Below the pieces are notes generated by a model, which saw only the letters and a program-made list of their open reading frames with translations, was not told where the DNA came from and made no database searches. From the UHGV virus genome UHGV-1976345: a DNA stretch of 12,099 nucleotides. One strand, written 5' to 3'. The position numbers and the translations under genes are program-made. Each line of letters starts with the position of its first letter. Within the stretch, counting starts at the first letter, position 1. Below, piece by piece: positions 807 through 12,099 of the stretch. Source of the stretch: a virus.

Positions 807-1235
807 TTACTGCACATCCTGCTCAAAAGGAATTATTGAAAAATCCTCAATGTCGCTTTTAATGGAAATACCGGGAATATTTTTCACGGCCTCTTTTTCA
901 TTCAGGATAGCGTCTTTATTTATTTCCTCTTTTACACGAATAAAGCGCTCAAGCCCCAGACGTCTCAGTAATTCAATAACATTATCCGCCCCACGGATAC
1001 TGACTGATGGCGGACGGTTTCGCCACTGCACCTCGCCGGTGGTGAGGTTAGCGAACTTCACCTTCCCGTTGCCGGTCAGTTCATCACGGTGCGCCTCACA
1101 CCATGTCTGGATACCGGACTGCAGTTCGGCCATGCGTTTTTTCAGGCTCTCGGTGACCCGGCGAAACATAAAACGGCGATCGAGGATGAGGTGGTTACCT
1201 TTGACAAATCGACAGGGCAGGCCAGACTGGCGCAT
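807..1235 (-). CDS. gam: Mu Gam-family host-nuclease inhibitor, probably 5'-truncated or with uncertain start
   Basis: C-terminal ~120 aa of minus ORF 807..1703 (WCEAHRDELTGNGKVKFANLTTGEVQWRNRPPSVSIRGADNVIELLRRLGLERFIRVKEEINKDAIL...GISIKSDIEDFSIIPFEQ) match the Mu Gam C-terminal region closely from memory. Stop TAA at 809-807. The nearest in-frame ATG is 1235-1233 with no convincing Shine-Dalgarno. Upstream of about 1250 the ORF is only the antisense shadow of the sheath gene. Confidence 0.7.
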   Translation of the reverse strand: MRQSGLPCRFVKGNHLILDRRFMFRRVTESLKKRMAELQSGIQTWCEAHRDELTGNGKVKFANLTTGEVQWRNRPPSVSIRGADNVIELLRRLGLERFIRVKEEINKDAILNEKEAVKNIPGISIKSDIEDFSIIPFEQDVQ

Positions 1236-1250
1236 CCGGTTGTCGCTAAT

Positions 1251-2327
1251 GTGGTGGTGAAAAACAGTGAAGGCAGCACCACCCACACGGCGAACACGGA
1301 CTACCGTGTTGATGCGCAGGCGGGTGTGCTCACGAACCTGGGCAAGGCTATTGAGGCCGGTGGCAGCGTGAAGGTGAGCTATGAGTACGCGGACCCGTCG
1401 AAGGTGACTGCGGCGGACATCATCGGCGGGGTGAACAGCGCCGGAAACCGAACCGGCATGAAGCTGCTTAACGACAGCTTCAACCTGTACGGCTATTTCG
1501 CCAAAATTCTGATTGCGCCGGTGTTCTGCACCCAGAAGAGTGTCGCAGTTGAGCTTATCGCCATGGCAGAGAAGCTGGGCGCGGTAACCTACATTGATGC
1601 GCCTGTCGGTACCACCTTTGCACAGGCTCTGGCAGGTCGTGGCCCGGAAGGCACCATCAACTTCAATACCAGCTCCGACCGCGTCCGTCTGTGCTATCCG
1701 CATGTGAAGGTATATGACCCGGTGACAAACACAGAGCGTCTGGAGCCGCTCAGCCAGCGTGCAGCAGGTCTGCGTGCCAGAGTCGATCTGGACAAGGGCT
1801 ACTGGTGGTCATCCTCCAATCAGGAGATTCTGGGGATCACCGGCGTGGAGCGCCAGCTGTCCGCGATGATTGATGACCCGCAGAGTGAGGTAAACCTGCT
1901 TAACGAACAGGGGATCACCACGGTATTCAGCAGTTACGGCAGCGGCCTTCGTCTGTGGGGTAACCGGACGGCAGCATGGCCAACGGTCACCCATATGCGT
2001 AACTTTGAGAACGTTCGCCGCACCGGTGATGTGATCAACGAGTCCATTCGTTATTTCAGCCAGCAGTACATCGACATGCCGATTACTCAGGCGCTGATTG
2101 ATGCACTGACGGAGTCGGTCAACGCCTACGGTCGCAAAATGACTGGTGATGGTGCGGTACTGGGCTTCCGTTGCTGGTTTGATCCGGCCCGCAATCCGGA
2201 GACGGAGCTGGCCGCCGGGCACCTGTTGCTGAGCTACAAATATACGCCACCACCGCCGCTGGAGCGACTGACGTTTGAGACTGAGATCACCTCGGAATAC
2301 CTGTTAACCCTGAAAGGGGGCAACTGA
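1251..2327 (+). CDS. Contractile tail sheath protein (P2 FI / Mu L family), 5'-truncated, start undefined
   Basis: Plus ORF 1089..2327. Sheath-like motifs run from about 1290 to the stop at 2325-2327 (VKVSYEYADPSKVTAADIIGG, LRLWGNRTAAW, CWFDPARNPETELAAGHLLLSYKYTPPPPLERLTFE). The conserved N-terminal ~100 aa of sheath proteins is absent, there is no in-frame ATG or RBS near the homology start, and 1089-1250 is antisense to gam. Confidence 0.85.
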   Translation: MVVKNSEGSTTHTANTDYRVDAQAGVLTNLGKAIEAGGSVKVSYEYADPSKVTAADIIGGVNSAGNRTGMKLLNDSFNLYGYFAKILIAPVFCTQKSVAVELIAMAEKLGAVTYIDAPVGTTFAQALAGRGPEGTINFNTSSDRVRLCYPHVKVYDPVTNTERLEPLSQRAAGLRARVDLDKGYWWSSSNQEILGITGVERQLSAMIDDPQSEVNLLNEQGITTVFSSYGSGLRLWGNRTAAWPTVTHMRNFENVRRTGDVINESIRYFSQQYIDMPITQALIDALTESVNAYGRKMTGDGAVLGFRCWFDPARNPETELAAGHLLLSYKYTPPPPLERLTFETEITSEYLLTLKGGN

Positions 2328-2848
2328 TGTCAAAGATTGAGATAAACCGCATCACGAATGCCAACATCTATCTGGATGGTACTAACCTGCTGGGACGGGC
2401 TGAGGAAGTTAAACTCCCCGATGTCTCCATGATTATGCAGGAACACAAGGCGCTGGGGATGGTGGGTAAGGTGGAACTCCCGGCTGGTTTTGACAAACTG
2501 GAAGGCGAAATCAAATGGAACAGCTTTTACCGCGATGCGATGCTGTCTGCCGCGAACCCGTACAGGTCGCTGGCACTGCAGTGTCGTTCCAGCGTCCAGC
2601 GCTACAGCTCGCAGGGGCTGATTGACGAAATCCCGCTGGTCACCTTCCTGACGATTATGTTCAAGAAGAACCCGCTGGGGACGTTCAAACAGCACGAGAA
2701 CGCCGAGTTCTCCAGTAGCTTCACCTGCACGTATATCAGACAGGTACTGGATGGTGAAGAGCTGCTGCAACTGGACTATCTGGCCAACATCTTCCGGGTC
2801 GGCGGTGTTGATCAACTGACTGACTACCGTATCAATATCGGGGGCTGA
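2327..2848 (+). CDS. Tail tube protein (P2 FII family)
   Basis: ORF 2327..2848, 173 aa. ATG overlaps the sheath stop (TGATG) with AAGGGGG upstream. C-terminal FTCTYIRQVLDGEELLQLDYLANIFRVGGVDQLTDYRINIGG resembles the conserved P2 FII-type tube C-terminus (recollection). Confidence 0.9.
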   Translation: MSKIEINRITNANIYLDGTNLLGRAEEVKLPDVSMIMQEHKALGMVGKVELPAGFDKLEGEIKWNSFYRDAMLSAANPYRSLALQCRSSVQRYSSQGLIDEIPLVTFLTIMFKKNPLGTFKQHENAEFSSSFTCTYIRQVLDGEELLQLDYLANIFRVGGVDQLTDYRINIGG

Positions 2849-2850
2849 CG

Positions 2851-3132
2851 ATGAGTGTTGAACTGACGGATAAAGGAAGACGATGTGCGGCACTGGGCAT
2901 GTCAAATGGTACGTGGTTTACCCTCCTTGATATTCCGGGGGTGGAAACCCTTTTTAATACCCGTAAAACCAATGACCCGATTGACTGCACACGTTCAAAG
3001 GCCCGCAAACTGGCGGATTTGATTGAAGCATGGGAGCCTCCCGACCACTGGTTCTCCGGCACCGGCAAATCTGAGGGAAAGACGCTTCTCATCGCTTTCC
3101 TGCGTAACTGCAAGGGGTTTCGCACTTGCTGA
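2851..3132 (+). CDS. Hypothetical 93-aa protein between tube and chaperone genes (possible moron)
   Basis: ORF 2851..3132. ATG sits 2 nt after the tube stop with GGGGG Shine-Dalgarno 7 nt upstream, and is followed by a hairpin terminator. No family recognised. Uses several rare codons (AGA, CGA, GGA, CTT), so coding status is not certain. Confidence 0.45.
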   Translation: MSVELTDKGRRCAALGMSNGTWFTLLDIPGVETLFNTRKTNDPIDCTRSKARKLADLIEAWEPPDHWFSGTGKSEGKTLLIAFLRNCKGFRTC

Positions 3133-3138
3133 CATCAC

Positions 3139-3165
3139 AGGGGCTCCGGCCCCTTCTTCTTAATC
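3139..3165 (+). terminator. Putative intrinsic terminator or attenuator
   Basis: Perfect 6-bp GC-rich stem AGGGGC (3139-3144) / GCCCCT (3149-3154) with 4-nt loop TCCG, followed by T-rich TCTTCTTAATCTCCTTT, 7 nt after the ORF93 stop. Confidence 0.45.
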
Positions 3166-3229
3166 TCCTTTAATATCCGTCACGCGCTTCTCCCGACATA
3201 CTGCCCTGAACTTACACAGGAGCACAATC

Positions 3230-3565
3230 ATGTCACAGACCCCATCCGATACTTTTAAATTGTCTTATCCCTTCACCACTGCTGCAGGCACCAGAATTGA
3301 GCAGGTTGAACTGAAACGCCTGACGGTAAAAGACCTGAAGCAGGTGCGCAAAATCAGCAAAAACCCGGCAGACTGGGACGAACCGCTGATTGCCCGCAGT
3401 ACTGGTCTTCTCCCGGAAGATCTCGACAATATGGATCTGGCTGATTACCTGCAGTTACAGAAACGATTTCAGCTCATCACGGGGATGGGTGAGAGCAACC
3501 AGGGCGCTGACGCAGGCGCAGGGGCTGCTGGCGAGATGGTTCCGGTTTCAGCCGGGGGAGATTGA
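3230..3565 (+). CDS. Tail assembly chaperone, gpE-like (P2 E / lambda G analogue)
   Basis: ORF 3230..3565, 111 aa. AGGAG 7 nt upstream of the ATG. Lies immediately upstream of the tape measure gene and has a Gly/Ala-rich C-terminus, as in E/G-type chaperones; an overlapping out-of-frame extension ORF is present. Confidence 0.8.
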   Translation: MSQTPSDTFKLSYPFTTAAGTRIEQVELKRLTVKDLKQVRKISKNPADWDEPLIARSTGLLPEDLDNMDLADYLQLQKRFQLITGMGESNQGADAGAGAAGEMVPVSAGGD

Positions 3566-3647
3566 TGCCCTCGATACTGACGATCTGGAGATGTGGCTGG
3601 AGCAGGCTGAAGAGCAAATAAAAAGCGAGTACGGCGACAAATCATAG
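3230..3647 (+). CDS. Putative frameshift product E+E' (tail assembly chaperone, long form)
   Basis: ORF 3390..3647 (codon starts at positions divisible by 3) overlaps the 3' end of E (codon starts at positions with remainder 2). Its last 30 codons encode an acidic, protein-like peptide (GEIDALDTDDLEMWLEQAEEQIKSEYGDKS) ending 75 nt before the tape measure start. A GGGGG run at 3554-3558, two codons before the E stop, is the candidate slip site. Offset is +1 or -2, not -1. Confidence 0.5.
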
Positions 3648-3652
3648 TACAG

Positions 3653-3673
3653 ACAGCCGCCAGTAGCGGCTGT
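3653..3673 (+). promoter_or_regulatory. Stem-loop between E' stop and tape measure start
   Basis: ACAGCCGC (3653-3660) / GCGGCTGT (3666-3673), 8-bp stem with 5-nt loop, followed by a moderately T-rich tract (TCTGCGTTATCCCC). The tape measure RBS GGAGG follows at about 3709. Confidence 0.3.
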
Positions 3674-3722
3674 TCTGCGTTATCCCCTCACGTCTTTTCA
3701 CCTTCCCCGGAGGTTAACCACT

Positions 3723-6674
3723 ATGTCGGGACAGTTTTCAGTCGGCGTTGTTATCGGCGGGATGATTGGCAGCACATTCCGTTCTGCAATGAGCGGTACC
3801 CGCCGTGCGCTTGATTCCCTGAGCGATACCTCACGCCGCCTGCAGGAACGTCAGAACGCTTTAACCCGTGCAACAGAACGTTATGGTCAACTGGGTTCTT
3901 CCCGGATGCAGCATCTCAACAGCGAGCTGCTGCGGGTAAGCCGCACCATGGAGCAAATTGAGCGCCAGCAGCGCCGTCTGTCAGCGGCATCCGCTACCAG
4001 TGATGCGCTGAAAGCTAACCGCATGGCGCTGTATGGTCAGGGGATTGAAGCGTATGGCATGGCACAGACTGTTTATCATACGGTTTCCCCTGCCGTTCAG
4101 CAGTCCATGTCTTTTCAGGACAAAATGATTGATATGTCGATCACCGCAAAATATGACAATAAAACGCGGGATGGACTTGCCGGACAGATAAAAGGCTGGG
4201 CGCTTAAATACAATCAGTATCAGGATGAGCTGCAGGAGGCGGTGGGTTCACTCATCAGCGACAATATTGATAATGTGTCAGATATCGGTTTTCTGATGCC
4301 GGATATTGCCCGCGCGGCAACGGCAACACGCACGTCTGCTCAGGACTGGGCAAAAGTGGCCGCAGTCTGGCAAAACTCCCTGAAAGGTGCGGCCAGAGAT
4401 TTTGGTGCCGTTCAGAATATTATGGCTTATGCCGGTGACCAGGGGTCATTTGAAATCCCGGATCAGGTCAAGTGGATGCAGTCCCTGGCCCCAATGATGG
4501 CGGGTATTGCCAGTGGAAAAGAGGCTGTTGCTGAAATCGGGGCCAGTCTCCAGATAGCAAAAATCGGTGCAGGTTCCACCGACGAAGCAGCCAATAATTT
4601 TAAAAACTTTCTTACCAAAATTTTTGCCCGCGATACTCAGAAACAGTTTGCTGATCTGGGTATTGATTTGCAGGGATCTATTGCGAGTTATAAAGCTGCG
4701 GGGATCTCTCCGATTGAAGGGATGTTGAGTGTTATAGAACGTTACCTCAATGCCAAAAGCCCCGAAGCGCTGGCCGGCTTCAAATCAGCCATGAAAATAA
4801 AGAATGATACGGCAAGAGATGAGGCACTTCAGGCTCTGGCGAAAAACTTTGGTCTGGGCGATATGTTCGCGGATATGCAGGTCATGGCATTTATCCGCCC
4901 GATGCTGGCCAACATGGACAGATATCGAGAGATCCGTGCCGGTGCTCTCAGGGCTGCGGATAACGATTTGCTTGCCAGTGCTTATGATCAGCGGCTGAAA
5001 TCTCCCCTTGAAGCCACTAAAACACTTATGGTCAGCAGTCGCGATCTGGCAATTACGCTGGGCGATCAATTAGCTCCATCTTTTATTTCTTTGACTCAGG
5101 AACTGCTTCCACTCATTCAGGGGGCAAAACACTGGGTAGCGACTCACCCGCAATTTGTCAGTGGGGCTTTTAAGCTCATCAGTGCGCTCCTTGCGATTAA
5201 GATAGCGACTGTTGGTCTCAAACTGGGGCTGAATCTCCTTATTTCCCCCTTTGTAAGTGTCTGGAAAAATGCTGTTTTACTTCGGGCCAACTGGCTTCGT
5301 CTGTCGCTCGCACTGGGGCAAGGCGGTAAGCTCCGCTGGCTGGTGACCGGATTTAGCGCCGTCGCCAGAGGAGCCAGAACACTGAGTGGCGTGCTCTCCG
5401 GGGGGCTGGTTCGCGGAATTATGCTCGCCGGACGTGCTGTTCTCTGGATTGGAGGTGCGCTGATGATGAATCCCATCGGTCTCGTTATCACCGCTGTCGC
5501 GGCAGCAGCTTACCTTATCTACCGCAACTGGGGGGCAGTCAGTGGCTGGTTTAAACAGCGCTGGGCAGACATTCAGGAAGCCTTTAACGGCGGCATTGTG
5601 GGAACTGGTAAGTTGCTGATTAACTGGTCGCCGGCAGGCCTGCTCTATAAAGCCTTTGCGGCTGCGCTGAAATATTTCGGCGTTGCTCTGCCGGCAAAGT
5701 TCACCGACTTCGGTGGCCATCTTATCGACGGTCTGATTAACGGTATCAAAAACAAATGGGGGTCGCTCAAATCCAGTGTAACCGGAATGGGTGACAGCAT
5801 CAGTAGCTGGTTTAAACAGTGCTGGGCTGACATTCAGGAAGCCTTTAACGGCGGTATCGCGGGAACTGGTAAGCTGCTGATTAACTGGTCGCCGGCAGGT
5901 CTGCTCTATAAAGCCTTTGCAGCTGCGCTGAAATATCTTGGTGTTGATCTGCCGGCAAAGTTTACCGACTTCGGTGGCCATCTTGTCGATGGTCTGATTA
6001 ACGGTATCAAAAACAAATGGGAGTCGCTCAAATCCAGTGTAACCGGAATGGGTGACAGCATCAGTGGCTGGTTCAGCGAAAAGCTGGGCATTCATTCGCC
6101 GAGCCGCGTGTTTATGGGCTTTGGTGACAATATCGCGCAGGGGGCCGCCATTGGCCTGCAGCGGACCACTCCGCTTGCAGCTCTGGCCGGGCAGCGAATG
6201 GCCAGTGAACTGCTCCCCAGAATGCCCGTGAGCATCCAGGGGCCAGAAATACGGGATAACACTTCAGGTGTTCGCTTCAGTATGCCGTTGCCCGATATCA
6301 ATGGGTTTATGTCGTCTGCTAAAAATGCGATCGGAGCCGTAATCAATAGTTTGTCTTCCATGCCCGCTATTCCGCTCTCCACCCGGGCATCGATTTTACC
6401 AGGGCAACGTCTGGCAAATGAGATGACACCGGATGTTCCCCGTATCCCCTCGCCTGAAATCCTGGCTGCCGGATATTCAGGCCGTGGTGCAGCTGCAACC
6501 GGCGGTGGAACGTCTGGTGGTATCCAGGTCAGCTTTAATCCTCAGTTTTTCCTCAATGGCAGGGAAACCACAGCGCCTGCAGGACTGACTGGTGCCCTGA
6601 ATATGAGTCTGCATGAGCTGGAAAAAATGCTGGAGCGTCTGCTGGCTCAGAAACAACGTAAGGAGTACCGCTGA
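3723..6674 (+). CDS. Tail tape measure protein (P2 T family)
   Basis: ORF 3723..6674, 983 aa. Position after the E/E' pair, Ala/Gln-rich helical N-terminal region, long hydrophobic Gly/Ala/Leu-rich central segment (about residues 480-600) and an internal tandem repeat are all typical of tape measure proteins. GGAGG 9 nt upstream of the ATG. Confidence 0.9.
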   Translation: MSGQFSVGVVIGGMIGSTFRSAMSGTRRALDSLSDTSRRLQERQNALTRATERYGQLGSSRMQHLNSELLRVSRTMEQIERQQRRLSAASATSDALKANRMALYGQGIEAYGMAQTVYHTVSPAVQQSMSFQDKMIDMSITAKYDNKTRDGLAGQIKGWALKYNQYQDELQEAVGSLISDNIDNVSDIGFLMPDIARAATATRTSAQDWAKVAAVWQNSLKGAARDFGAVQNIMAYAGDQGSFEIPDQVKWMQSLAPMMAGIASGKEAVAEIGASLQIAKIGAGSTDEAANNFKNFLTKIFARDTQKQFADLGIDLQGSIASYKAAGISPIEGMLSVIERYLNAKSPEALAGFKSAMKIKNDTARDEALQALAKNFGLGDMFADMQVMAFIRPMLANMDRYREIRAGALRAADNDLLASAYDQRLKSPLEATKTLMVSSRDLAITLGDQLAPSFISLTQELLPLIQGAKHWVATHPQFVSGAFKLISALLAIKIATVGLKLGLNLLISPFVSVWKNAVLLRANWLRLSLALGQGGKLRWLVTGFSAVARGARTLSGVLSGGLVRGIMLAGRAVLWIGGALMMNPIGLVITAVAAAAYLIYRNWGAVSGWFKQRWADIQEAFNGGIVGTGKLLINWSPAGLLYKAFAAALKYFGVALPAKFTDFGGHLIDGLINGIKNKWGSLKSSVTGMGDSISSWFKQCWADIQEAFNGGIAGTGKLLINWSPAGLLYKAFAAALKYLGVDLPAKFTDFGGHLVDGLINGIKNKWESLKSSVTGMGDSISGWFSEKLGIHSPSRVFMGFGDNIAQGAAIGLQRTTPLAALAGQRMASELLPRMPVSIQGPEIRDNTSGVRFSMPLPDINGFMSSAKNAIGAVINSLSSMPAIPLSTRASILPGQRLANEMTPDVPRIPSPEILAAGYSGRGAAATGGGTSGGIQVSFNPQFFLNGRETTAPAGLTGALNMSLHELEKMLERLLAQKQRKEYR
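5547..6068 (+). repeat. In-frame tandem duplication (2 x 261 bp) inside the tape measure gene
   Basis: Copy 1 at 5547-5807 and copy 2 at 5808-6068 both begin TGGTTTAAACAG; about 17 mismatches over 261 bp (roughly 93% identity by hand count). Encodes two 87-aa units, WFKQ(R/C)WADIQEAFNGGI...GMGDSIS(S/G). A third unit starts at 6069 (TGGTTCAGCG) then diverges. Confidence 0.9.
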
Positions 6675-7558
6675 TGTTTGCCGTACTGGGTGATATTGAG
6701 TTTGAGCTGATTACCTACTGGGACGGCTTCGAGGCCACGTTCGGCGTCGATTATGCGGAGCATGCCCGCATCGGGGGTAAGCCTGGCCTGCAGTTCGTCG
6801 GCGACAGGCTGGACGAAATCCAGATAACTCTGGTTTTCCATCAGCATTATTGTGTACCCGATGTGGAGCTGGCGAGACTGCGAACAGCCATGAAAGCCCA
6901 TCAGGCACTGGCGCTGGTCTTCGGCAACGGTGACTATCGCGGCTGGTTCGTGATTACCGATGTGACTGCAACCAGCGAGCAGACTGACAGTACCGGCAAC
7001 GTGCTGGCTGTCAGTGCCACCGTGTCTCTCCGGGAATACACCGGTGACCCGAAAAATCCTCTGCAACCACCGGCAATACGCACGAAGCTCCCGGGTGTCG
7101 GGGCGGTCTCCGGTGCCATACCTTCACCTTCAGGGGTGGCGCAGTTCATCCGCAACGGCGTCAACTATGCGAAACAGGCGCAGTCTGTACTCCAGACCAC
7201 TATCAGCGCCGTTCGGGTGACACAGAAAATGAAGGATAACCCCGTTGTCGCACTGACCCGTGTGCCGGGGCTGATGAGCGGACTGGGTAATATCTCCGGG
7301 GCTCTGGGGAAAAGTGTTCCGGCGTTTAACGCACTCTCTGAATCCATGCCCGATGCCATCAGTCTGGCCAGAACAGCCAGCGAAGCAGCCACGTATGTAC
7401 AGCAGGCACAGTCTGCGCTGAGTGGTGTGGACAAAAGAAATATTGCAGGTGCTCTGGATACCGTTTCCGGGCAGCTTAACGCCGCCGGCACAGCATTCAA
7501 CCGCATGTCTCCGGGATTAAGTGCAATGGCCGCCAGAATACTGACGAGGAGTGTGTGA
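6674..7558 (+). CDS. gpU-family tail protein with about 150-aa C-terminal extension
   Basis: ORF 6674..7558, 294 aa. ATG overlaps the tape measure stop (TGATG) with AAGGAG upstream. The N-terminal ~130 aa fit the P2 gpU pattern (LGxIEFE...IGGKPGLQFVGDRLDEIQITLVF...GWFVITDV). The remainder is Ala/Ser/Gly/Gln-rich and unassigned. Confidence 0.75.
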   Translation: MFAVLGDIEFELITYWDGFEATFGVDYAEHARIGGKPGLQFVGDRLDEIQITLVFHQHYCVPDVELARLRTAMKAHQALALVFGNGDYRGWFVITDVTATSEQTDSTGNVLAVSATVSLREYTGDPKNPLQPPAIRTKLPGVGAVSGAIPSPSGVAQFIRNGVNYAKQAQSVLQTTISAVRVTQKMKDNPVVALTRVPGLMSGLGNISGALGKSVPAFNALSESMPDAISLARTASEAATYVQQAQSALSGVDKRNIAGALDTVSGQLNAAGTAFNRMSPGLSAMAARILTRSV

Positions 7559-7770
7559 TGTTTCTTGAACATGTTACCCGTGACGGAGAGCGCTGGGATT
7601 CGCTGGCATGGCAGTACTACGGTGACCCGCTGGGCTATCCCCGGATTATTGCCGCCAATCCGCACGTGGCCATCACGCCGGTGCTGCCCTCCGGGCTGTT
7701 GTTACTGATCCCGGTGATTGAGGCTGAAGAAGCCCGTACAGAAGAGGATATTGCCCCATGGCTGAGATAA
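7558..7770 (+). CDS. Tail protein X (LysM-like, P2 gpX family)
   Basis: ORF track 7555..7770 (GTG at 7555; ATG at 7558 is the more likely start and overlaps the U stop). MFLEHVTRDGERWDSLAWQYYGDPLGYPRIIAANPHV fits the gpX LysM-like pattern. GAGGAG upstream. Confidence 0.85.
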   Translation: MFLEHVTRDGERWDSLAWQYYGDPLGYPRIIAANPHVAITPVLPSGLLLLIPVIEAEEARTEEDIAPWLR

Positions 7771-8912
7771 ACAGCACTGCGCAAGTCACATCAGCGTTAA
7801 CCGGCGTCAGCGATGTGCTGACACCGGTGTTCACTTTGTGGTATCTGCAGAAAAACATCACCTCTGATATCGCGCCTTATGTCACCCGTGTGACCTGGAG
7901 CGATAACATCAAAAATGAGTCCGATACCATTGAGGTGGAGCTGGACGACACCGATGGCCGCTGGCTGGATAAATGGTATCCGGGCAAGGGTGACACGCTG
8001 ACGCTGAAAATGGGCTATCAGGGCGAGAAGCTGCTGTCCTGCGGTACGTTCTCTATAGACGAGATCGAAGTGAGTTCGCCCGCTTCCGTTGTTTCTATCC
8101 GTGGGGTGGCCACCTCGGTTAACAGTGCCCTGCGGACTAAAACCAGTCGTGGTTTTGAGAACACCACGCTGGCAGCTGTTGCGGGGCGGATTGCCAGAAA
8201 GCACCGACTGAAACTGGTGGGCAGCATTGAGTCCATCAGAATCGACCGGGTGACCCAGTATGCTGAAACCGACGTGGGTTTTCTGCGCCGGCTGGCCAGC
8301 GAGTATGGTTATGCAGTGAAAGTGGTCAGTGACCAGCTGATTTTTTCTCATCTGGCCACACTGCGCAGTCAGGAGCCGGTCAGGCAGTTAAAACCGCAGG
8401 ATGTGGCCCGCTTTTCCCTGCGTGACACCATCAACCGGGTCTATAAATCTGCAAAGGTAAAACACCAGAAAAGCAGCAGTAAAAAACTGATCGTCTACGA
8501 AGCTGATGGTGGTACCCGTGAAAGCGACAAAAAGCTCAAAGGTGGTAAGGTTACCAGCGCTGACTCACTTAAAGTTAACAGCCGCGTCAGCGACCCGGAC
8601 AGTGCCCGGATTAAAGCGGATTCAGCACTGGCCAGACATAACGAATACCAGCAGAACGGCTCCCTGACGCTGACGGGAACACCTCAACTGACAGCAGGCA
8701 ACAAAATTGAACTGGTGGGTTTTGGGCAGTTATCCGGGCCATGGCTCATAACCACTGCCCGCCATGCGTTTGACCGTAACAGCGGCTACACCACAGAGCT
8801 GGAAGTGGCACGGGGGCCAGTCACAAGAGGGAAAAAACAAAAAACTCAGAAACTCACGGTTTATCACCCGGATGGCAGTACATCGACGGTGATTAAGGAG
8901 AAGAAAAAATGA
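7758..8912 (+). CDS. Baseplate hub / late control protein D (P2 gpD family)
   Basis: ORF 7758..8912, 384 aa, similar in size to P2 gpD. Start overlaps the X 3' end by 13 nt with GAGGA 11 nt upstream. Has gpD-like motifs (FSIDEIEV, YAETDVGFLRRLASEYGYAVKV) and sits after X and before V. Confidence 0.9.
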   Translation: MAEINSTAQVTSALTGVSDVLTPVFTLWYLQKNITSDIAPYVTRVTWSDNIKNESDTIEVELDDTDGRWLDKWYPGKGDTLTLKMGYQGEKLLSCGTFSIDEIEVSSPASVVSIRGVATSVNSALRTKTSRGFENTTLAAVAGRIARKHRLKLVGSIESIRIDRVTQYAETDVGFLRRLASEYGYAVKVVSDQLIFSHLATLRSQEPVRQLKPQDVARFSLRDTINRVYKSAKVKHQKSSSKKLIVYEADGGTRESDKKLKGGKVTSADSLKVNSRVSDPDSARIKADSALARHNEYQQNGSLTLTGTPQLTAGNKIELVGFGQLSGPWLITTARHAFDRNSGYTTELEVARGPVTRGKKQKTQKLTVYHPDGSTSTVIKEKKK

Positions 8913-9505
8913 CTGGTGTCACTCGTCAGGTCGGTACGGTCAGTGCCGTTGATGCCGACAGGGTTCAGGCCCGCGTTCGTCTGCCTGAATGCGATAACCT
9001 GCGCACAAACTGGCTTAACGTGCTGCAGCGCAATACCCAGGATAACAAAGATTACTGGCTCCCTGACGTGGGGGAGCAGGTTGAGGTGCTGCTCGATGCC
9101 AACGGCGAGGATGGTGTTATTCTGGGCGCGGTGTATTCAGACGTCGATAAACCACCGTTCAGTGACAAAAATATCCGGGGAACCCGGTTTGCTGATGGTG
9201 CAGAGTACAGCTACAACCGGAAGACGCACACTCTGACCATCCGGGGCGGCATTGAGCATATTGTCATTGAGTGTGGTGCTGATGTGGTATTGAAAACACA
9301 GAAAGCCACGATTGACGCACCGGAAACCGAACTTACCGGAGATCTGCGTGTCAGGGGTAAGCTGATTTACGAAGGAGGCATGGCGGGTTCTGGTGGTGAA
9401 GGTGTTACCGCGACCATCCATGGCAATATCGAGATTAAAGGGAATGCCCATGCCACGGGCAGTATGTTGTCTGATGGCGAAAACTCCAGCCACCACTCCC
9501 ACTGA
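8909..9505 (+). CDS. Baseplate central spike protein (P2 gpV family)
   Basis: ORF 8909..9505, 198 aa. ATGA overlap with D and AAGGAGA upstream. WLPDVGEQVEVLL and a C-terminal Gly-rich beta-helix-like region ending in the His-rich SSHHSH match the gpV pattern. Confidence 0.9.
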   Translation: MTGVTRQVGTVSAVDADRVQARVRLPECDNLRTNWLNVLQRNTQDNKDYWLPDVGEQVEVLLDANGEDGVILGAVYSDVDKPPFSDKNIRGTRFADGAEYSYNRKTHTLTIRGGIEHIVIECGADVVLKTQKATIDAPETELTGDLRVRGKLIYEGGMAGSGGEGVTATIHGNIEIKGNAHATGSMLSDGENSSHHSH

Positions 9506-9541
9506 GCTTTTTAAACGCCTTTAATATCAGCGTTCCCGCAC

Positions 9542-9559
9542 GGGGGCAATACTGCCCCC
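9542..9559 (+). promoter_or_regulatory. GC-rich stem-loop directly abutting the gpW start codon
   Basis: GGGGGCA (9542-9548) / TGCCCCC (9553-9559), 7-bp stem with ATAC loop; the W ATG begins at 9560. No T-tract follows, so it is not called a terminator. Confidence 0.35.
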
Positions 9560-9907
9560 ATGAAAACAACCTCAGTATTCTGGCAACCGACCCTGCAGGC
9601 TCCCGGCGAAATTGTCCGGGGGCTGGATGATATCCGGCAGGCGATTCAAATTATCCTGCGGACTCCCCGCGGCAGCGACCCGCATCGCCCGGAGTTCGGC
9701 AGCAATCTGCATCTTTATATCGACTGGCCTGTAGACCGGGCCATTCCGCATGTGGTGCGCGAATCCGTCGATGCCATCCGGCGCTGGGAGCCCCGCTGCC
9801 AGCTTATGTCAGTTAAACCCGCCGTCGACGGCGAACATCTTACGCTCCGGGTGAGCTGGAAAGGCTCAGACGGACAGACCCGGACTCAGGAGCTGCTATG
9901 GCGCTGA
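9560..9907 (+). CDS. Baseplate wedge protein (P2 gpW / T4 gp25-like)
   Basis: ORF 9560..9907, 115 aa. IRQAIQIILRTPRGSDPHRPEFGSNL and RRWEPRCQL match the GPW/gp25 pattern (ILxTPxGS ... WEPR). Confidence 0.85.
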   Translation: MKTTSVFWQPTLQAPGEIVRGLDDIRQAIQIILRTPRGSDPHRPEFGSNLHLYIDWPVDRAIPHVVRESVDAIRRWEPRCQLMSVKPAVDGEHLTLRVSWKGSDGQTRTQELLWR

Positions 9908-11001
9908 CAGAACCCGATTTTATTGAACGCGATGCCGACAAAATCACGGCAGAAATGATTGCGAAGTATGAAGCGGATACCGGCAAAACGCTGTACCCGG
10001 CACAGGCAGAACGTCTGCTGATTGATCTGTGGGCCTATCGCGAAATGCTGGTCAGGGTTGCGGTACAGGAGGCAGCAAAGCAGAATCTGGTCGCCTTTGC
10101 CCGTGAGCCGATGATTGATTACCTCGGTGAACTGGTCGGTGTATACCGTCTTGCCGCGCAGCCTGCCACTACCACGCTCCAGTTCTCCGTAGATGAGGCA
10201 CTGGCCATTGATGTGCTGATCCCGGCAGGCACCCGCGTCAGCGCTTCCGACAGCGTTATTTTTGCCACCGATACAGATGTGGTACTGAAGGCCGGATTGC
10301 TGCTGGTCAATGTCACGTCCACCTGTACCGAACCCGGTACCGCTGGTAACGGCTGGCAACCTGCGCAGGTCAGTCAGTTACTCGATGAGATTGATAACGT
10401 CGACCTGCTGGTGAGCAATCTGACGGCCAGTTCCGGCGGTTCAGAACAGGAAGACGATGACAGGCTCCGGGAGCGTATCAGGCTGGCCCCGGAGTCATTC
10501 ACCAATGCCGGAAGCCGTGGCGCATACCGCTTTCATGCCATGCAGGCCCATCCCAACATTGTCGATGTTGCTGTGCTTTCCCCGGTTCCCGGGACCGTAG
10601 ATCTGTATCCGCTGCTCAGTACCGGTCTGCCGGACGGCGGTGTTCTCACGCTGGTAGAGAGTTTCTGCTCTGATGAGAAAGTCAGGCCACTCACTGATAC
10701 AGTGCGGGCTAAAACACCAGTGAAGGTGGATTACACCATTGAAGCCAAGATTACGATCTATCGTGATCAGGATGCCAGGTCTGTAAAAGATGCCGCTAAC
10801 AGCGCCATACAGAACTGGGTGGCATCACGTGCCGCCACGCTGGGGCGCGATATTGTCCCCAGCCAGATTATCAGTGCATTGTCCGTTTCCGGGGTGTACC
10901 AGGTTGAACTGGTGACACCGGCACTGCGGGTGGTGGCAGAAAACGAATGGGCAAACTGTACGGCAATCACTCTTAACATGACTGGAGTGTCTGATGACTG
11001 A
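9898..11001 (+). CDS. Baseplate protein J (P2 gpJ / T4 gp6-like)
   Basis: ORF 9898..11001, 367 aa. Overlaps the W stop by 10 nt with AGGAG upstream. SFTNAGSRGAYRFHAMQAHPNIVDVAV and LGRDIVPSQIISALSVSGVYQVEL match conserved gpJ regions. Confidence 0.9.
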   Translation: MALTEPDFIERDADKITAEMIAKYEADTGKTLYPAQAERLLIDLWAYREMLVRVAVQEAAKQNLVAFAREPMIDYLGELVGVYRLAAQPATTTLQFSVDEALAIDVLIPAGTRVSASDSVIFATDTDVVLKAGLLLVNVTSTCTEPGTAGNGWQPAQVSQLLDEIDNVDLLVSNLTASSGGSEQEDDDRLRERIRLAPESFTNAGSRGAYRFHAMQAHPNIVDVAVLSPVPGTVDLYPLLSTGLPDGGVLTLVESFCSDEKVRPLTDTVRAKTPVKVDYTIEAKITIYRDQDARSVKDAANSAIQNWVASRAATLGRDIVPSQIISALSVSGVYQVELVTPALRVVAENEWANCTAITLNMTGVSDD

Positions 11002-11572
11002 GCCATTACAACTCCCGCCACCGCTTGAGGGTGATATCAGTCTCAGGACGCTGGGAAGACTGGCAGGACGGCTGGATAACATCGACCTGAGCGTACTGAT
11101 GGTCTTTCTCGTCGATATCGTCGACAGTTCCGCGCTGCCATGGCTGGGCGAGCAGTTCTCACTGTCTGGCGATGGCTGGGAGCTGGCGGAATCGGACGAT
11201 GTTCGCCGCATGCTTATAAAAGCAGCCATCGAACTGCACCGGTATAAAGGGACGCCGTGGTCAATCCGGGAAGTTATCCGCCGTTTTGGCTTTGGTGAAG
11301 TGGATCTGATTGAAGGCACAGGTCGTCTCAGTTACGACGGCAATCGCAGCTATAACGGACTGTTTGTTCATGGAGATGCAGCCGCCTGGGCAGTTTATCG
11401 CGTTATTCTGAAACAGCCCATTACTAACGATCAGGCCGCGATGCTGCGTCAGACGCTGGCTGCATTTGCACCGGCCCGCTGCCATCTGGCCAGCCTGGAG
11501 TATCAGTCTGTGGCCATTCGCTATAACAATACCGCCATCCATGATGGCAGTTATAACCACGGGAGCAGTTGA
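10994..11572 (+). CDS. Baseplate / tail protein I (P2 gpI family)
   Basis: ORF 10994..11572, 192 aa. Overlaps the J stop by 8 nt with GGAG upstream. ALPWLGEQFSL ... HRYKGTPWSIREVIRRFG fits the gpI pattern (LPWLA ... H.KGT). Confidence 0.85.
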   Translation: MTEPLQLPPPLEGDISLRTLGRLAGRLDNIDLSVLMVFLVDIVDSSALPWLGEQFSLSGDGWELAESDDVRRMLIKAAIELHRYKGTPWSIREVIRRFGFGEVDLIEGTGRLSYDGNRSYNGLFVHGDAAAWAVYRVILKQPITNDQAAMLRQTLAAFAPARCHLASLEYQSVAIRYNNTAIHDGSYNHGSS

Positions 11573-11574
11573 TT

Positions 11575-12099
11575 ATGGGAAACCTGAATGAAACAGAAAA
11601 GTGGGAAGAAAATATCTATCAACTGGAGACATCAGATCCGGTTCTGGGTGGTGCAGACGGGATATCAAATCGAGCCCCCCGGCAACTGGCAAACAGGACG
11701 AAATGGCTGAAGAAAAAAACGGAGGAAGCCGCACAGTCACTGGCTGAACACGTACGTTCCCGTAACCACCCGGACGCGACACTGACAGCTAAGGGGTTCA
11801 CCCAACTGAGCAGTGCCACCAACAGCACCTCTGAAACGCTGGCCGCCACACCAAAGGCCGTCAAGGCTGCATATGACCTGGCTGCCGGCAAGGCCCCCGT
11901 CAGCCATACTCACCCGTGGAGTCAGATAACGGGAGTGCCTGCTGCCTCGCTGACGGCAAAAGGCACCGTACAACTGAGCAGCGCCACGGACAGTCAATCA
12001 GAAACTGAGGCTGCCACGCCGAAGGCGGTCAAGGCTGTATACGACCTTGCAGCCGGCAAGGCGCCCGTCAGCCACACTCACCCGTGGAGTCAGATAACG
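11575..12099 (+). CDS. Tail fiber protein (P2 gpH-like), 5' portion only; runs off the window end
   Basis: ATG at 11575, 2 nt after the I stop, with GGGAG upstream; frame is open to 12099 and not in the ORF track because no stop is reached. Contains HPDATLTAKGFTQLSSATNSTSETLAATPKAVKAAYDLA, the conserved fiber collar repeat seen in P2 H and lambda-type side tail fibers. Confidence 0.85.
   Translation, partial: MGNLNETEKWEENIYQLETSDPVLGGADGISNRAPRQLANRTKWLKKKTEEAAQSLAEHVRSRNHPDATLTAKGFTQLSSATNSTSETLAATPKAVKAAYDLAAGKAPVSHTHPWSQITGVPAASLTAKGTVQLSSATDSQSETEAATPKAVKAVYDLAAGKAPVSHTHPWSQIT
11782..12099 (+). repeat. Tandem tail-fiber repeat (2 units of about 150 nt, 168-nt period)
   Basis: Unit 1 at 11782-11931 and unit 2 at 11950-12099, both ending GCCGGCAAGGC(C/G)CCCGTCAGCCA(T/C)ACTCACCCGTGGAGTCAGATAACG. 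The 5' halves differ at many synonymous sites; the 3' ~45 nt are nearly identical. The window ends exactly at the end of unit 2. Confidence 0.85.

What the first reader, a model, noticed from the sequence alone, without database searches (positions are those of the whole stretch)
2849..3229. Unassigned 93-aa ORF plus hairpin terminator in the tube-to-chaperone gap
In P2 the tube gene FII is followed directly by E. Here a 381-bp gap holds ORF 2851..3132, coupled to the tube stop with a GGGGG Shine-Dalgarno, and then a clean hairpin 3139-3154 plus T-rich tract. The ORF matches no family I recognise and uses rare codons (AGA, CGA, GGA, CTT). It could be a moron-type accessory gene, or the whole gap could be an attenuator that lowers E/T/U/D expression relative to sheath and tube.
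Basis: partly seen in the sequence, partly recalled or inferred. Interest (0 to 1): 0.5.

Follow-up and report, generated by a model that had tools for sequence, protein, structure and literature searches.

The report
Phage cargo gene before operon terminator
The 93-codon ORF is a real but dispensable phage accessory gene of unknown function (Pfam DUF7739), sitting in a swap-in/swap-out slot just after the tail-tube gene, and the hairpin behind it is the phage's own conserved operon terminator, followed by a likely late promoter.

Summary

The ORF is a genuine gene. It matches PHROG 1239 over its full length (E 5e-48), belongs to Pfam DUF7739, and has dN/dS of about 0.09. It is also dispensable cargo:
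- Relatives with 91-96% identical tube genes lack it.
- Others carry different genes at the same site: a gp49-like protein, a 66-aa protein, a Cys-less ferredoxin-like protein, or a CdiA-CT toxin with its immunity gene.
- 8 of 74 copies are disrupted.
- Homologues sit in the early accessory region of P22-like phages and in phages of about 92-100 kb.

The hairpin belongs to the phage backbone, not to the ORF. It is present in empty sites and from E. coli relatives to Burkholderia BcepMu, with at least 12 different stem sequences.

Directly after it lies a TTAA-N6-TTAA dyad plus a -10-like hexamer. This motif recurs upstream of four late gene blocks and has the layout of Mu C-dependent late promoters.

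So the gap is cargo gene, then terminator, then probable late promoter. It is not an attenuator spacer. The protein's function remains unknown, and the inhibitor-like fold is only weakly supported.

The parts
2327..2848 (+). Tail tube gene (P2 FII-like). Its last codons (GGG GGC TGA) supply the G-run that serves as the Shine-Dalgarno-like element for the next cistron.
   Evidence: Pfam Phage_tube E 2.9e-53. 100% identical to the PhiKM tube. dN/dS 0.03.
2840..2853 (+). Coupling junction: GGGGG (2840-2844), tube stop TGA (2846-2848), 2-nt spacer, ATG (2851).
   Evidence: Read directly from the sequence. The same tight junction, with an ATG or GTG start, is seen in relatives.
2851..3132 (+). Accessory cargo gene, 93 aa: PHROG 1239 / Pfam DUF7739, function unknown. 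Predicted soluble alpha/beta protein, pI 8.8.
   Evidence: PHROG 1239 E 5.4e-48 over residues 1-93. DUF7739 scores 24.9 bits locally, and PF24881.2 is precomputed for the identical protein P0001. dN/dS 0.09. 66 of 74 copies intact. AF2 pLDDT 87.5. Absent or replaced in close relatives.
3139..3164 (+). Backbone intrinsic-terminator-like element: 6-bp GC stem with tetraloop (3139-3154) plus an interrupted T tract (3154-3164). Predicted 3' end of the head-sheath-tube late transcription unit.
   Evidence: Present in empty sites and in BcepMu (GGCCCGC-TTCG-GCGGGCC-TTTTTT). Found in 89 of 104 distinct relatives with at least 12 different stems. Background rate 7.7%.
3160..3173 (+). TTAA-N6-TTAA dyad: putative binding site for the phage's Mor/C-family late activator. 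It overlaps the terminator's T tract and is centred at about -42.5 from the predicted transcription start.
   Evidence: The motif recurs at four late-operon starts in PhiKM, with none expected by chance. It aligns with four BcepMu sites at fixed spacing. Mu C binds a 16-bp dyad centred at -43.5 (PMC2582627).
3197..3202 (+). -10-like hexamer CATACT with no recognisable -35. The predicted transcription start is near 3209.
   Evidence: A at position 2 and T at position 6 are kept in all 8 aligned sites. Mu Plys and PI have TAGACTG and CAAACTG. This is inference, not mapped.
3216..3232 (+). Shine-Dalgarno (ACAGGAGCA) and ATG of the tail assembly chaperone gene (E-like, 3230-3565).
   Evidence: The leader is conserved in all relatives.

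Best explanation
The window is the tail module of a BcepMu-like transposable prophage of Enterobacterales.

**The ORF.** ORF 2851-3132 is a real protein-coding accessory ('cargo') gene of the DUF7739 / PHROG 1239 family. It occupies a gene-exchange hotspot between the tail-tube stop codon and the terminator that closes the late head-sheath-tube transcription unit. I found no promoter of its own. I infer that it is transcribed as the last cistron of that late operon and translated by coupling to the tube gene (TGAcgATG, with the G-run as ribosome-binding site).

**The hairpin.** Hairpin 3139-3154 with its T-rich tail is not part of the insertion. It is an old backbone element, most likely an intrinsic terminator, probably partial because its U tract is interrupted.

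**The promoter.** Immediately after the hairpin comes a probable late promoter of the Mu C-dependent type. It consists of a TTAA-N6-TTAA dyad at 3160-3173, a -10-like CATACT at 3197-3202, and no -35. It would restart transcription for the chaperone, tape-measure and baseplate-hub genes.

**The protein.** It is a small soluble alpha/beta protein without enzymatic motifs. My best guess, at low confidence, is that it binds and inhibits a host or rival-phage protein (counter-defence or host takeover). Its relatives in P22-like phages lie among the anti-RecBCD, Lar-like and Ea genes.

**Shown:** coding status, family membership, variable presence, the hotspot, and independence and conservation of the hairpin and motif.

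**Inferred:** termination, promoter activity, timing of expression, and molecular function.
For: **Gene reality**
- PHROG 1239 match, E 5.4e-48, full length.
- 33 close homologues and 75 representative clusters, nearly all stand-alone proteins of 90-100 aa.
- dN/dS 0.09, against tube 0.03 and chaperone 0.21.
- Confident AF2 model, pLDDT 87.5.

**Cargo status**
- Among 80 IMG/VR relatives with 91-100% identical tube genes, 71 carry the gene. Ten of these also have a PF13876 gp49-like gene in front of it.
- Nine lack it: eight are empty (chaperone start about 90-135 nt after the tube gene, allowing for the truncated chaperone match in L075), and L084 instead has an unrelated 66-aa gene.
- 8 of 74 copies are disrupted, against 2 of 83 tube genes.
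- Across 75 species genomes, 32 sites are empty and 21 hold the gene. Others hold a ferredoxin-like gene, PHROG 9518, or a CdiA-CT RNase with CdiI_2.
- Homologues at 39-54% identity lie in the early-left accessory region of Sf6, HK75, CUS-3 and similar phages, and in phages of about 92-100 kb.

**Hairpin is a backbone element**
- It is present in empty sites and in BcepMu, whose tube-chaperone gap is 121 nt with a canonical terminator.
- 89 of 104 distinct upstream regions have a hairpin with a T tail 75-120 nt before the chaperone ATG, with at least 12 different stem sequences. Background is 7.7%.
- Cargo always lies upstream of the hairpin.

**Promoter**
- The motif occurs exactly four times in PhiKM, all on the + strand and all intergenic. 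The sites are upstream of lysis, between G and I, before the chaperone, and between V and W. None is expected by chance.
- The same four positions in BcepMu align at fixed spacing.
- The architecture equals that of Mu late promoters: a -10, no -35, and a dyad at -43.5.
- PhiKM encodes a C homologue.
Against: - No transcript data exist. Termination and promoter activity are inferred from sequence only.
- The T tract is interrupted (TTCTTCTTAAT), so the hairpin could act mainly as an RNA-stability element.
- The promoter pattern was defined after seeing the sites, so the '0 expected' figure is partly circular.
- The C activator gene is not in the window.
- The window's element appears rearranged: the sheath gene is 5'-truncated at a junction with gam. 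This particular copy may not be expressed at all.
- A weak promoter inside the tube gene's 3' end cannot be excluded.
Confidence: 0.75

Rival explanations
1. The whole 381-bp gap is a non-coding regulatory spacer or attenuator, and the ORF is fortuitous.
For: A hairpin with a T-rich tract is present. Many spurious ORFs of similar length exist in the window.
Against: - The ORF matches PHROG 1239 over its full length, E 5e-48.
- dN/dS is 0.09 over 44 alleles.
- Homologues occur in unrelated genomic contexts.
- The hairpin and leader occur without the ORF in empty sites.
Confidence: 0.02
2. The 93-aa protein is a tail-assembly or virion component specific to this lineage, for example a tube-associated or injected protein, rather than an accessory gene.
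For: - It lies directly after, and is coupled to, the tube gene inside the late morphogenesis operon.
- The homologue in Yersinia phage fHe-Yen8-01 is annotated 'particle associated protein' by its depositors.
Against: - Relatives with 94-96% identical tube genes lack it.
- 8 of 74 copies are broken.
- BcepMu and P2 have no such gene.
- Homologues sit in early regions of P22-like podoviruses, which have no contractile tail.
- The basis of the 'particle associated' label could not be checked, as no paper was found.
Confidence: 0.08
3. It is a classical moron: an autonomous unit with its own promoter and the hairpin as its own terminator, expressed from the repressed prophage for lysogenic conversion.
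For: Presence is variable, a hairpin lies downstream, and GC3 is lower than in sheath and tube.
Against: - The start codon is 2 nt after the tube stop and no sigma-70-like site lies upstream.
- The hairpin is present in empty sites and in BcepMu, so it did not arrive with the gene.
- Composition is like that of the chaperone and tape measure.
Confidence: 0.1
4. The hairpin is chiefly a 3' mRNA-stabilising or processing element rather than a terminator, and the downstream motif is a leader or operator element rather than a promoter. Sheath through tape measure would then be one transcript, as in the P2 F operon.
For: - The T tract is interrupted.
- P2 has a GC hairpin without a T tail between FII and E, within a single annotated operon.
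- Some lineages lack the hairpin (L079, L086 and the short-gap lineages).
Against: - BcepMu and the Pandoraea and Neisseria relatives have canonical stems followed by T runs.
- The motif recurs upstream of the lysis and I genes, positions homologous to Mu Plys and PI. It has the fixed dyad-to-hexamer spacing typical of C/Mor promoters.
Confidence: 0.15

Closest known systems
Pfam DUF7739 (PF24881) / PHROG 1239, e.g. Shigella phage Sf6 gp22, CUS-3 hkaH-region ORF
   Same: Same protein family. The length is about 90-100 aa, and the conserved blocks are shared: M[ST]VE..PK, N.TWF, TNDP, W.PP..W and F[FL]..C.GF.T. Function is unknown.
   Different: In P22-like phages the gene lies in the early-left accessory region, between a DUF2737 gene and ead/Ea22. 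Here it is the last cistron of a late structural operon. Identity is only about 43%. This subfamily is mildly basic, whereas many members are acidic.
Morons in tail operons, e.g. HK97 gp15 (superinfection exclusion; Cumby et al. 2012, cited in PMC11364771)
   Same: An extra, dispensable small gene inserted between conserved tail genes, variably present among relatives.
   Different: From my own knowledge, classical morons carry their own promoter and terminator and are expressed in the lysogen. Here no promoter was found, and the terminator belongs to the backbone.
Phage Mu C-dependent late promoters (Plys, PI, PP, Pmom)
   Same: A -10 hexamer without a -35, and an activator dyad centred near -43. 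The sites lie upstream of the lysis and I-like genes, and a terminator hairpin precedes the promoter, as with C-lys in Mu.
   Different: The dyad sequence differs (TTAA-N6-TTAA). There are extra sites before the chaperone and W genes instead of Mu's PP and Pmom. Nothing has been tested experimentally here.
P2 F operon (FI-FII-E-E'-T-U-D)
   Same: Homologous sheath, tube, chaperone, tape-measure, U and D genes in the same order.
   Different: P2 has a 56-nt FII-E gap, one promoter (pF) and no gene or annotated terminator there. This lineage has a cargo slot, a terminator and a probable internal promoter.
DMP12 (Neisseria DNA mimic) / CdiI / YfbM small inhibitor-like folds
   Different: Sequence identity is 6-12%. 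Foldseek is not significant (E = 1 for DMP12). The protein is basic rather than acidic, and no toxin gene is adjacent. This is a resemblance only.

Membership tests
PHROG 1239 / Pfam DUF7739 (PF24881) | Full-length significant match to the family HMM | tested here: met
   - PHROG 1239: E 5.4e-48, residues 1-93 against profile positions 1-96 of 96.
- Local Pfam copy: 24.9 bits, just under the 27-bit cut-off.
- The 100%-identical database protein P0001 carries a precomputed PF24881.2 assignment.
PHROG 1239 / Pfam DUF7739 (PF24881) | Conserved sequence blocks shared with distant members | tested here: met
   In alignment A2 (35 sequences down to 27% identity), F83, G89 and F90 are invariant. M1, V3, N19, D42 and C87 are at least 90% conserved.
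Moron (sensu Juhala/Hendrix) | Present in some genomes and absent from closely related ones at the same site | tested here: met
   Sites are empty, filled or differently filled among relatives with 91-100% identical tube genes.
Moron (sensu Juhala/Hendrix) | Own promoter upstream and own terminator downstream | tested here: not met
   The ATG is 2 nt after the tube stop and no promoter-like site is found. The hairpin is present in empty sites and in BcepMu, so it is a backbone element.
Moron (sensu Juhala/Hendrix) | Nucleotide composition distinct from neighbours | tested here: inconclusive
   GC is 0.52 against 0.53-0.61 in neighbours. GC3 of 0.548 is below tube (0.705) but equals the chaperone and tape measure.
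Moron (sensu Juhala/Hendrix) | Expressed from the repressed prophage | not testable with these tools
   Needs RNA-seq of a lysogen.
Rho-independent (intrinsic) terminator | GC-rich stem-loop followed directly by a U tract | tested here: met
   The stem has 6 bp, 5 of them GC, with a tetraloop and dG of -12.8. The tail TTCTTCTTAAT has 7 T in 11 and is interrupted, so termination may be partial. BcepMu has TTTTTT.
Rho-independent (intrinsic) terminator | Structure conserved through changes in sequence | tested here: met
   At least 12 different stem sequences occur at the same position in 89 of 104 distinct relatives. The background rate is 7.7%.
Rho-independent (intrinsic) terminator | Transcript 3' ends at the site | not testable with these tools
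   Needs Term-seq or 3'-RACE.
Mor/C-dependent late promoter (phage Mu type) | -10 hexamer present, -35 absent, dyad activator site centred near -43.5 | tested here: met
   The -10-like CATACT is at 3197-3202 and the dyad at 3160-3173, centred at about -42.5 from the predicted start. The Mu rule comes from PMC2582627.
Mor/C-dependent late promoter (phage Mu type) | Same element repeated at the starts of the other late operons; activator gene in the genome | tested here: met
   There are four sites in PhiKM, all intergenic and on the + strand, and four in BcepMu. A C homologue is annotated in PhiKM and BcepMu. The pattern was defined post hoc, and the C gene is outside this window.
Mor/C-dependent late promoter (phage Mu type) | Activator-dependent transcription initiation | not testable with these tools
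   Needs a reporter fusion or 5'-end mapping.
DNA-mimic proteins (DMP12-like) | Strongly acidic surface imitating DNA | tested here: not met
   The pI is 8.8 with net charge +3. Family pI ranges from 4.1 to 9.7, so charge is not conserved.
DNA-mimic proteins (DMP12-like) | Significant structural similarity | tested here: inconclusive
CdiI-type immunity proteins | Adjacent cognate toxin gene | tested here: not met

The most novel reading that the evidence does not exclude
The slot between the tube stop codon and the late-operon terminator may be a dedicated 'late cargo' position in BcepMu-like phages. Genes placed there would be made in bulk with sheath and tube, only during lytic growth.

DUF7739 proteins could then be late-acting or virion-delivered counter-defence factors, for example against systems that sense or sabotage structural proteins. 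The other occupants of the slot, including a CdiA-CT RNase toxin with its immunity gene, would be weapons of inter-phage or inter-bacterial competition released or delivered at lysis.

The depositor's 'particle associated protein' label on the Yersinia phage homologue would fit virion delivery.
Probability: 0.15. Interest if true: 0.6.

Novelty: new member of a known kind. Interest (0 to 1): 0.33.

Why it matters
**For annotation.**
- The 'hypothetical protein' after the tube gene in a prophage carried by about 11% of complete E. coli genomes is a real, selected but dispensable gene of a named domain family. It is neither a tail component nor a spacer.
- The tube-chaperone intergenic region of BcepMu-like phages is an operon boundary: a terminator plus a probable C-type late promoter. 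That gives a testable map of four late transcription units for this group.

**For biology.**
- The site is a compact exchange hotspot holding at least five unrelated cargo types, including a toxin-immunity pair.
- This makes it a convenient place to look for late-expressed phage accessory functions, and a defined set of small proteins to screen against defence systems.

None of this overturns current ideas. It extends the moron and accessory-region picture and the Mu late-promoter model to this lineage.

Tried and rejected
**Function by sequence: nothing found.**
- NCBIfam and PADLOC gave no hits.
- PDB sequence searches with two profiles found nothing credible.
- Rfam found no RNA family in the window.

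**Function by structure: only weak leads.**
- Foldseek against the PDB and BFVD gave no significant or named match.
- The AFDB library was unavailable.
- The DNA-mimic idea was rejected because the protein is basic and charge is not conserved in the family.

**Apparent domain fusions in the deep search.**
- Hits such as P0056 DUF2737+DUF7739, P0100 lambda-P+DUF7739 and P0077 with YopX look like read-through of neighbouring phage genes.
- The very large proteins (P0096, P0101, P0102) are low-scoring repeats of unrelated families.
- P0018's 'Gp37' N-terminus is likewise chimeric. BcepMu gp37 is not at this site.

**Literature: nothing on this family.**
- Searches for DUF7739, phrog_1239, hkaH, fHe-Yen8-01 and DUF2737 found nothing about the family.
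- The accessory-gene screen papers do not contain the sequence in the supplements held.

**Other dead ends.**
- The rare-codon argument was rejected.
- My first motif search used the wrong spacing and found nothing. It was corrected.

Full report
**1. What is in the window**

The window is a tail-gene cluster.
- Window 1155-5636 matches Escherichia phage PhiKM (genus Bcepmuvirus) at 98.2% identity, and 5823-12099 at 99.5%. The 2300-3750 stretch is 99.6% identical.
- The gene order runs: sheath (5'-truncated, see section 8), tube 2327-2848, ORF 2851-3132, chaperone E 3230-3565 with an overlapping E' frame, and tape measure 3723-6674.
- It continues with a gene annotated 'tail protein U' in PhiKM and KP12, then X, D, V, W, J and I.
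The gap is 2849-3229 (381 bp). The ORF starts 2 nt after the tube stop, behind a G-run at 2840-2844. AGGGGC-TCCG-GCCCCT occupies 3139-3154 and is followed by TTCTTCTTAAT. The hairpin folds at -12.8 kcal/mol, z = -2.26.

**2. The ORF is a real gene of a named family**

- It matches PHROG 1239 end to end, E 5.4e-48.
- It matches Pfam DUF7739 at 24.9 bits in the local copy, against a cut-off of 27. The 100%-identical database protein carries PF24881.2.
- A word-indexed search found 33 relatives in Escherichia, Salmonella, Shigella, Citrobacter, Serratia, Photorhabdus and Morganella.
- An exhaustive profile search found 75 representative clusters, almost all stand-alone proteins of 90-100 aa.
- Among 44 distinct alleles from related tail modules, dN/dS is 0.09. 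This lies between the tube (0.03) and the chaperone (0.21).
- The rare-codon remark does not hold. The ORF has 4.3 rare codons per 100, against 1.5-4.4 in its neighbours. Its GC3 resembles that of the chaperone and tape measure.

**3. It is dispensable cargo in an exchange hotspot**

I fetched 80 IMG/VR loci whose tube protein is 91-100% identical and measured the tube-to-chaperone interval.
- 71 carry the ORF.
- In 10 of those, a second gene of about 96 aa precedes it. This gene belongs to Pfam PF13876, the N4 gp49 / Sf6 gp66 family.
- 9 lack the ORF. Eight of these sites are empty, with the chaperone start about 90-135 nt after the tube gene (the 229-nt figure for L075 reflects a truncated chaperone match; its intergenic sequence is that of L078). 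The ninth, L084, holds an unrelated 66-aa gene, PHROG 9518.
- Eight of 74 copies are broken, by nonsense mutation, frameshift or an in-frame deletion. Only 2 of 83 tube genes are broken.

A scan of one genome per species gave 75 further loci from many genera.
- 32 sites are empty and 21 hold the ORF or a remnant of it.
- Six Pectobacterium loci carry a ferredoxin-like protein that has lost its cluster cysteines (Fer2 E 1.5e-4; PHROG 844).
- One Neisseriaceae locus carries a CdiA-CT RNase-A-type toxin (E 8.5e-32) with a CdiI_2 immunity gene (E 1.1e-17).
- BcepMu itself has an empty 121-nt gap, and P2 has a 56-nt gap.

Outside this phage group, homologues of 39-54% identity sit in quite different places.
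- In Sf6, the gene lies in the early-left accessory region, between a DUF2737 gene and ead/Ea22 and downstream of abc2.
- It also occurs in other temperate phages near Ea-type genes or rdgC.
- It occurs in phages of about 92-100 kb, where one depositor labels it 'particle associated protein'.

A gene that moves between podovirus early regions and a myovirus late operon is not a tail-assembly component.

**4. The hairpin is a backbone element, not part of the insertion**

- Empty sites keep a hairpin with a T-rich tail directly after the tube stop, using different stems. Examples are AGGGGGCC/GGCTCCCT, AGGGAGC/GCTCCCT and GCGAGGGGCC/GGCCCCTTGC.
- BcepMu has GGCCCGC-TTCG-GCGGGCC followed by TTTTTT.
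- Over all loci, 89 of 104 distinct upstream regions have such an element 75-120 nt before the chaperone ATG.
- At least 12 different stem sequences are used across Enterobacterales, Pandoraea, Burkholderia and Neisseria.
- The same criteria hit 7.7% of random 128-nt windows from the same loci.
- Wherever cargo is present, it lies upstream of the hairpin.
- The element is therefore conserved as a structure at a fixed place. It is best read as the intrinsic terminator of the transcription unit that ends with the tube gene.
- In this window the U tract is interrupted, so termination may be incomplete. That is inference.

**5. What follows the hairpin looks like a late promoter**

- The 75-nt leader downstream of the hairpin is conserved even in the few relatives that lack the hairpin (L079, L086).
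- Its core, TTAA-N6-TTAA (3160-3173), recurs with one mismatch at 9511-9524 in the V-W intergenic region.
- In the PhiKM record, the extended pattern TAA-N5-WTTAAWATC-N22-RCTG occurs exactly four times, all on the + strand and all intergenic. The sites are upstream of the lysis genes, between G and I, before the chaperone, and between V and W. No matches occur in shuffled sequence.
- I defined the pattern after seeing the sites, so that statistic overstates significance.
- BcepMu has the same element at the same four positions. All eight sites align with a fixed 23-nt distance from the dyad to a hexamer that keeps A at position 2 and T at position 6.
- With that hexamer as the -10, the dyad is centred at about -42.5 and no -35 is present.
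[quoted passage not shown] They have recognisable -10 hexamers and no -35 hexamers, and C binds a 16-bp imperfect dyad centred at -43.5 (PMC2582627).
- Two of the four sites are positional homologues of Mu Plys and PI. Their sequences show the same ...ACTG -10 context, and at Plys a preceding terminator hairpin.
- PhiKM and BcepMu encode C/Mor-family activators.
- I therefore read 3155-3229 as a C-type late promoter and leader for the chaperone operon, with a predicted start near 3209. This is untested.

**6. How it most likely works**

- Late in lytic growth, the I-promoter transcript runs through the head, sheath and tube genes. It then passes through the cargo gene and ends, at least partly, at 3139-3164.
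- The cargo protein is translated by coupling to the abundantly translated tube gene.
- A separate C-activated promoter drives the low-copy chaperone, tape-measure and hub genes.
The mechanism is terminator plus re-initiation, and the ORF is not part of it.

**7. What the protein does remains open**

- AF2 gives a confident compact alpha/beta fold: two N-terminal strands, three helices and a C-terminal strand (pLDDT 87.5).
- Foldseek finds nothing significant in the PDB or BFVD. Profile searches of PDB sequences, PADLOC and NCBIfam are empty.
- The protein is basic (pI 8.8), and charge varies widely in the family. This argues against DNA mimicry.
- No enzymatic motif, signal peptide or membrane segment is apparent.
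- Given the company its relatives keep in P22-like phages, I favour a protein-binding, host- or defence-modulating role, at roughly 30% confidence.
- I found no paper on the family.

**8. Caveat on this copy**

- Window 34-1156 matches PhiKM 22979-24101, early genes ending inside gam. Window 1155 onward matches PhiKM 8953 onward, inside the sheath gene.
- Relative to PhiKM, about 19.5 kb is missing: transposase, repressor, lysis and head genes and the sheath 5' end.
- None of 5426 complete E. coli genomes has this junction, although 624 carry the two halves.
- The window is thus either a deleted remnant or an assembly join. The expression logic above applies to intact relatives.

**9. Verdict**

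- This is a new member of known kinds: a DUF-family phage accessory gene in a cargo hotspot, next to a Mu-type terminator-promoter junction.
- Interest is moderate to low. The hotspot's cargo diversity and the late-expression context are the parts worth following up.

Noticed in passing
window 1150-1160 (junction), with 807-1703 (-) and 1089-2327 (+): Relative to phage PhiKM, the window joins the middle of the gam gene (PhiKM 24101) to the inside of the sheath gene (PhiKM 8953). About 19.5 kb is missing (transposase, repressor, lysis, head), and the sheath gene is 5'-truncated. No complete E. coli genome out of 5426 has this junction, though 624 carry both halves. The window is either a deleted prophage remnant or an assembly chimera.
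   Followed up: partly
window 9511-9560: A second copy of the putative late-promoter element lies in the V-W intergenic region: dyad TTAAACGCCTTTAA at 9511-9524 and -10-like AATACT at 9548-9553. The W start codon is only 7 nt after the hexamer. The predicted transcript would therefore begin at or next to the ATG, making it a leaderless mRNA. BcepMu has the same geometry.
   Followed up: partly
window 5539-6073: The tape measure gene contains a 261-bp tandem duplication (2.0 copies, 93% identical, in frame, 87 aa per copy). If the protein acts as a length ruler, this should lengthen the tail. PhiKM has a sequencing gap at this spot.
   Followed up: partly
window 3652-3675: A second GC-rich hairpin (GACAGCCGC-CAGTA-GCGGCTGTTC) sits right after the stop of the E' frame and before the tape measure gene. 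It has no clear T tract, and its role is unknown.
   Followed up: no
window 3230-3647: The overlapping E' reading frame (3390-3647) is offset +1 (equivalently -2) from the chaperone frame (3230-3565). In P2, E+E' is annotated with a -1 frameshift. The slippery site was not located.
   Followed up: no
L147:3096-4343 (Neisseriaceae bacterium TC5R-5): At the same tube-terminator slot, this relative carries a 273-296-aa protein ending in a CdiA-CT RNase-A-type toxin domain, plus a CdiI_2 immunity gene. This is a polymorphic-toxin pair inside a phage tail operon.
   Followed up: partly
L126-L128, L131, L133, L136 (Pectobacterium spp.), about 3037-3369 in L127: The slot holds a plant-type ferredoxin-like protein (Fer2 E 1.5e-4; PHROG 844). 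Most of its cluster-binding cysteines appear to be replaced, so it probably no longer binds iron-sulfur.
   Followed up: no
L090 (NZ_PJIO01000028.1, 'Arthrobacter sp. GMC3', 8241-bp contig, coverage about 7) and L164: Contigs filed under Arthrobacter are 100% identical to this enterobacterial prophage across tube, ORF and chaperone. This is most likely contamination of those assemblies.
   Followed up: no
L166:2374-2430 (phage P2, FII-E intergenic): P2 also has a GC-rich 8-bp hairpin (CCGGTCAG-CCTGG-CTGGCCGG) between FII and E. It is followed by TTAACCC rather than a T tract and is not annotated in the record.
   Followed up: no
L087 (PhiKM) 4900-5114; L088 (Mu) 1386-1480: Other late-operon boundaries show the same 'terminator hairpin then late promoter' layout. 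One is the G-I intergenic region of PhiKM (GGGGCTGTA...TACAGCCTC TGTTTT, then the dyad). Another is the C-lys intergenic region of Mu (AACCGGCATCCTGCCGGTT ATTT, then Plys).
   Followed up: partly
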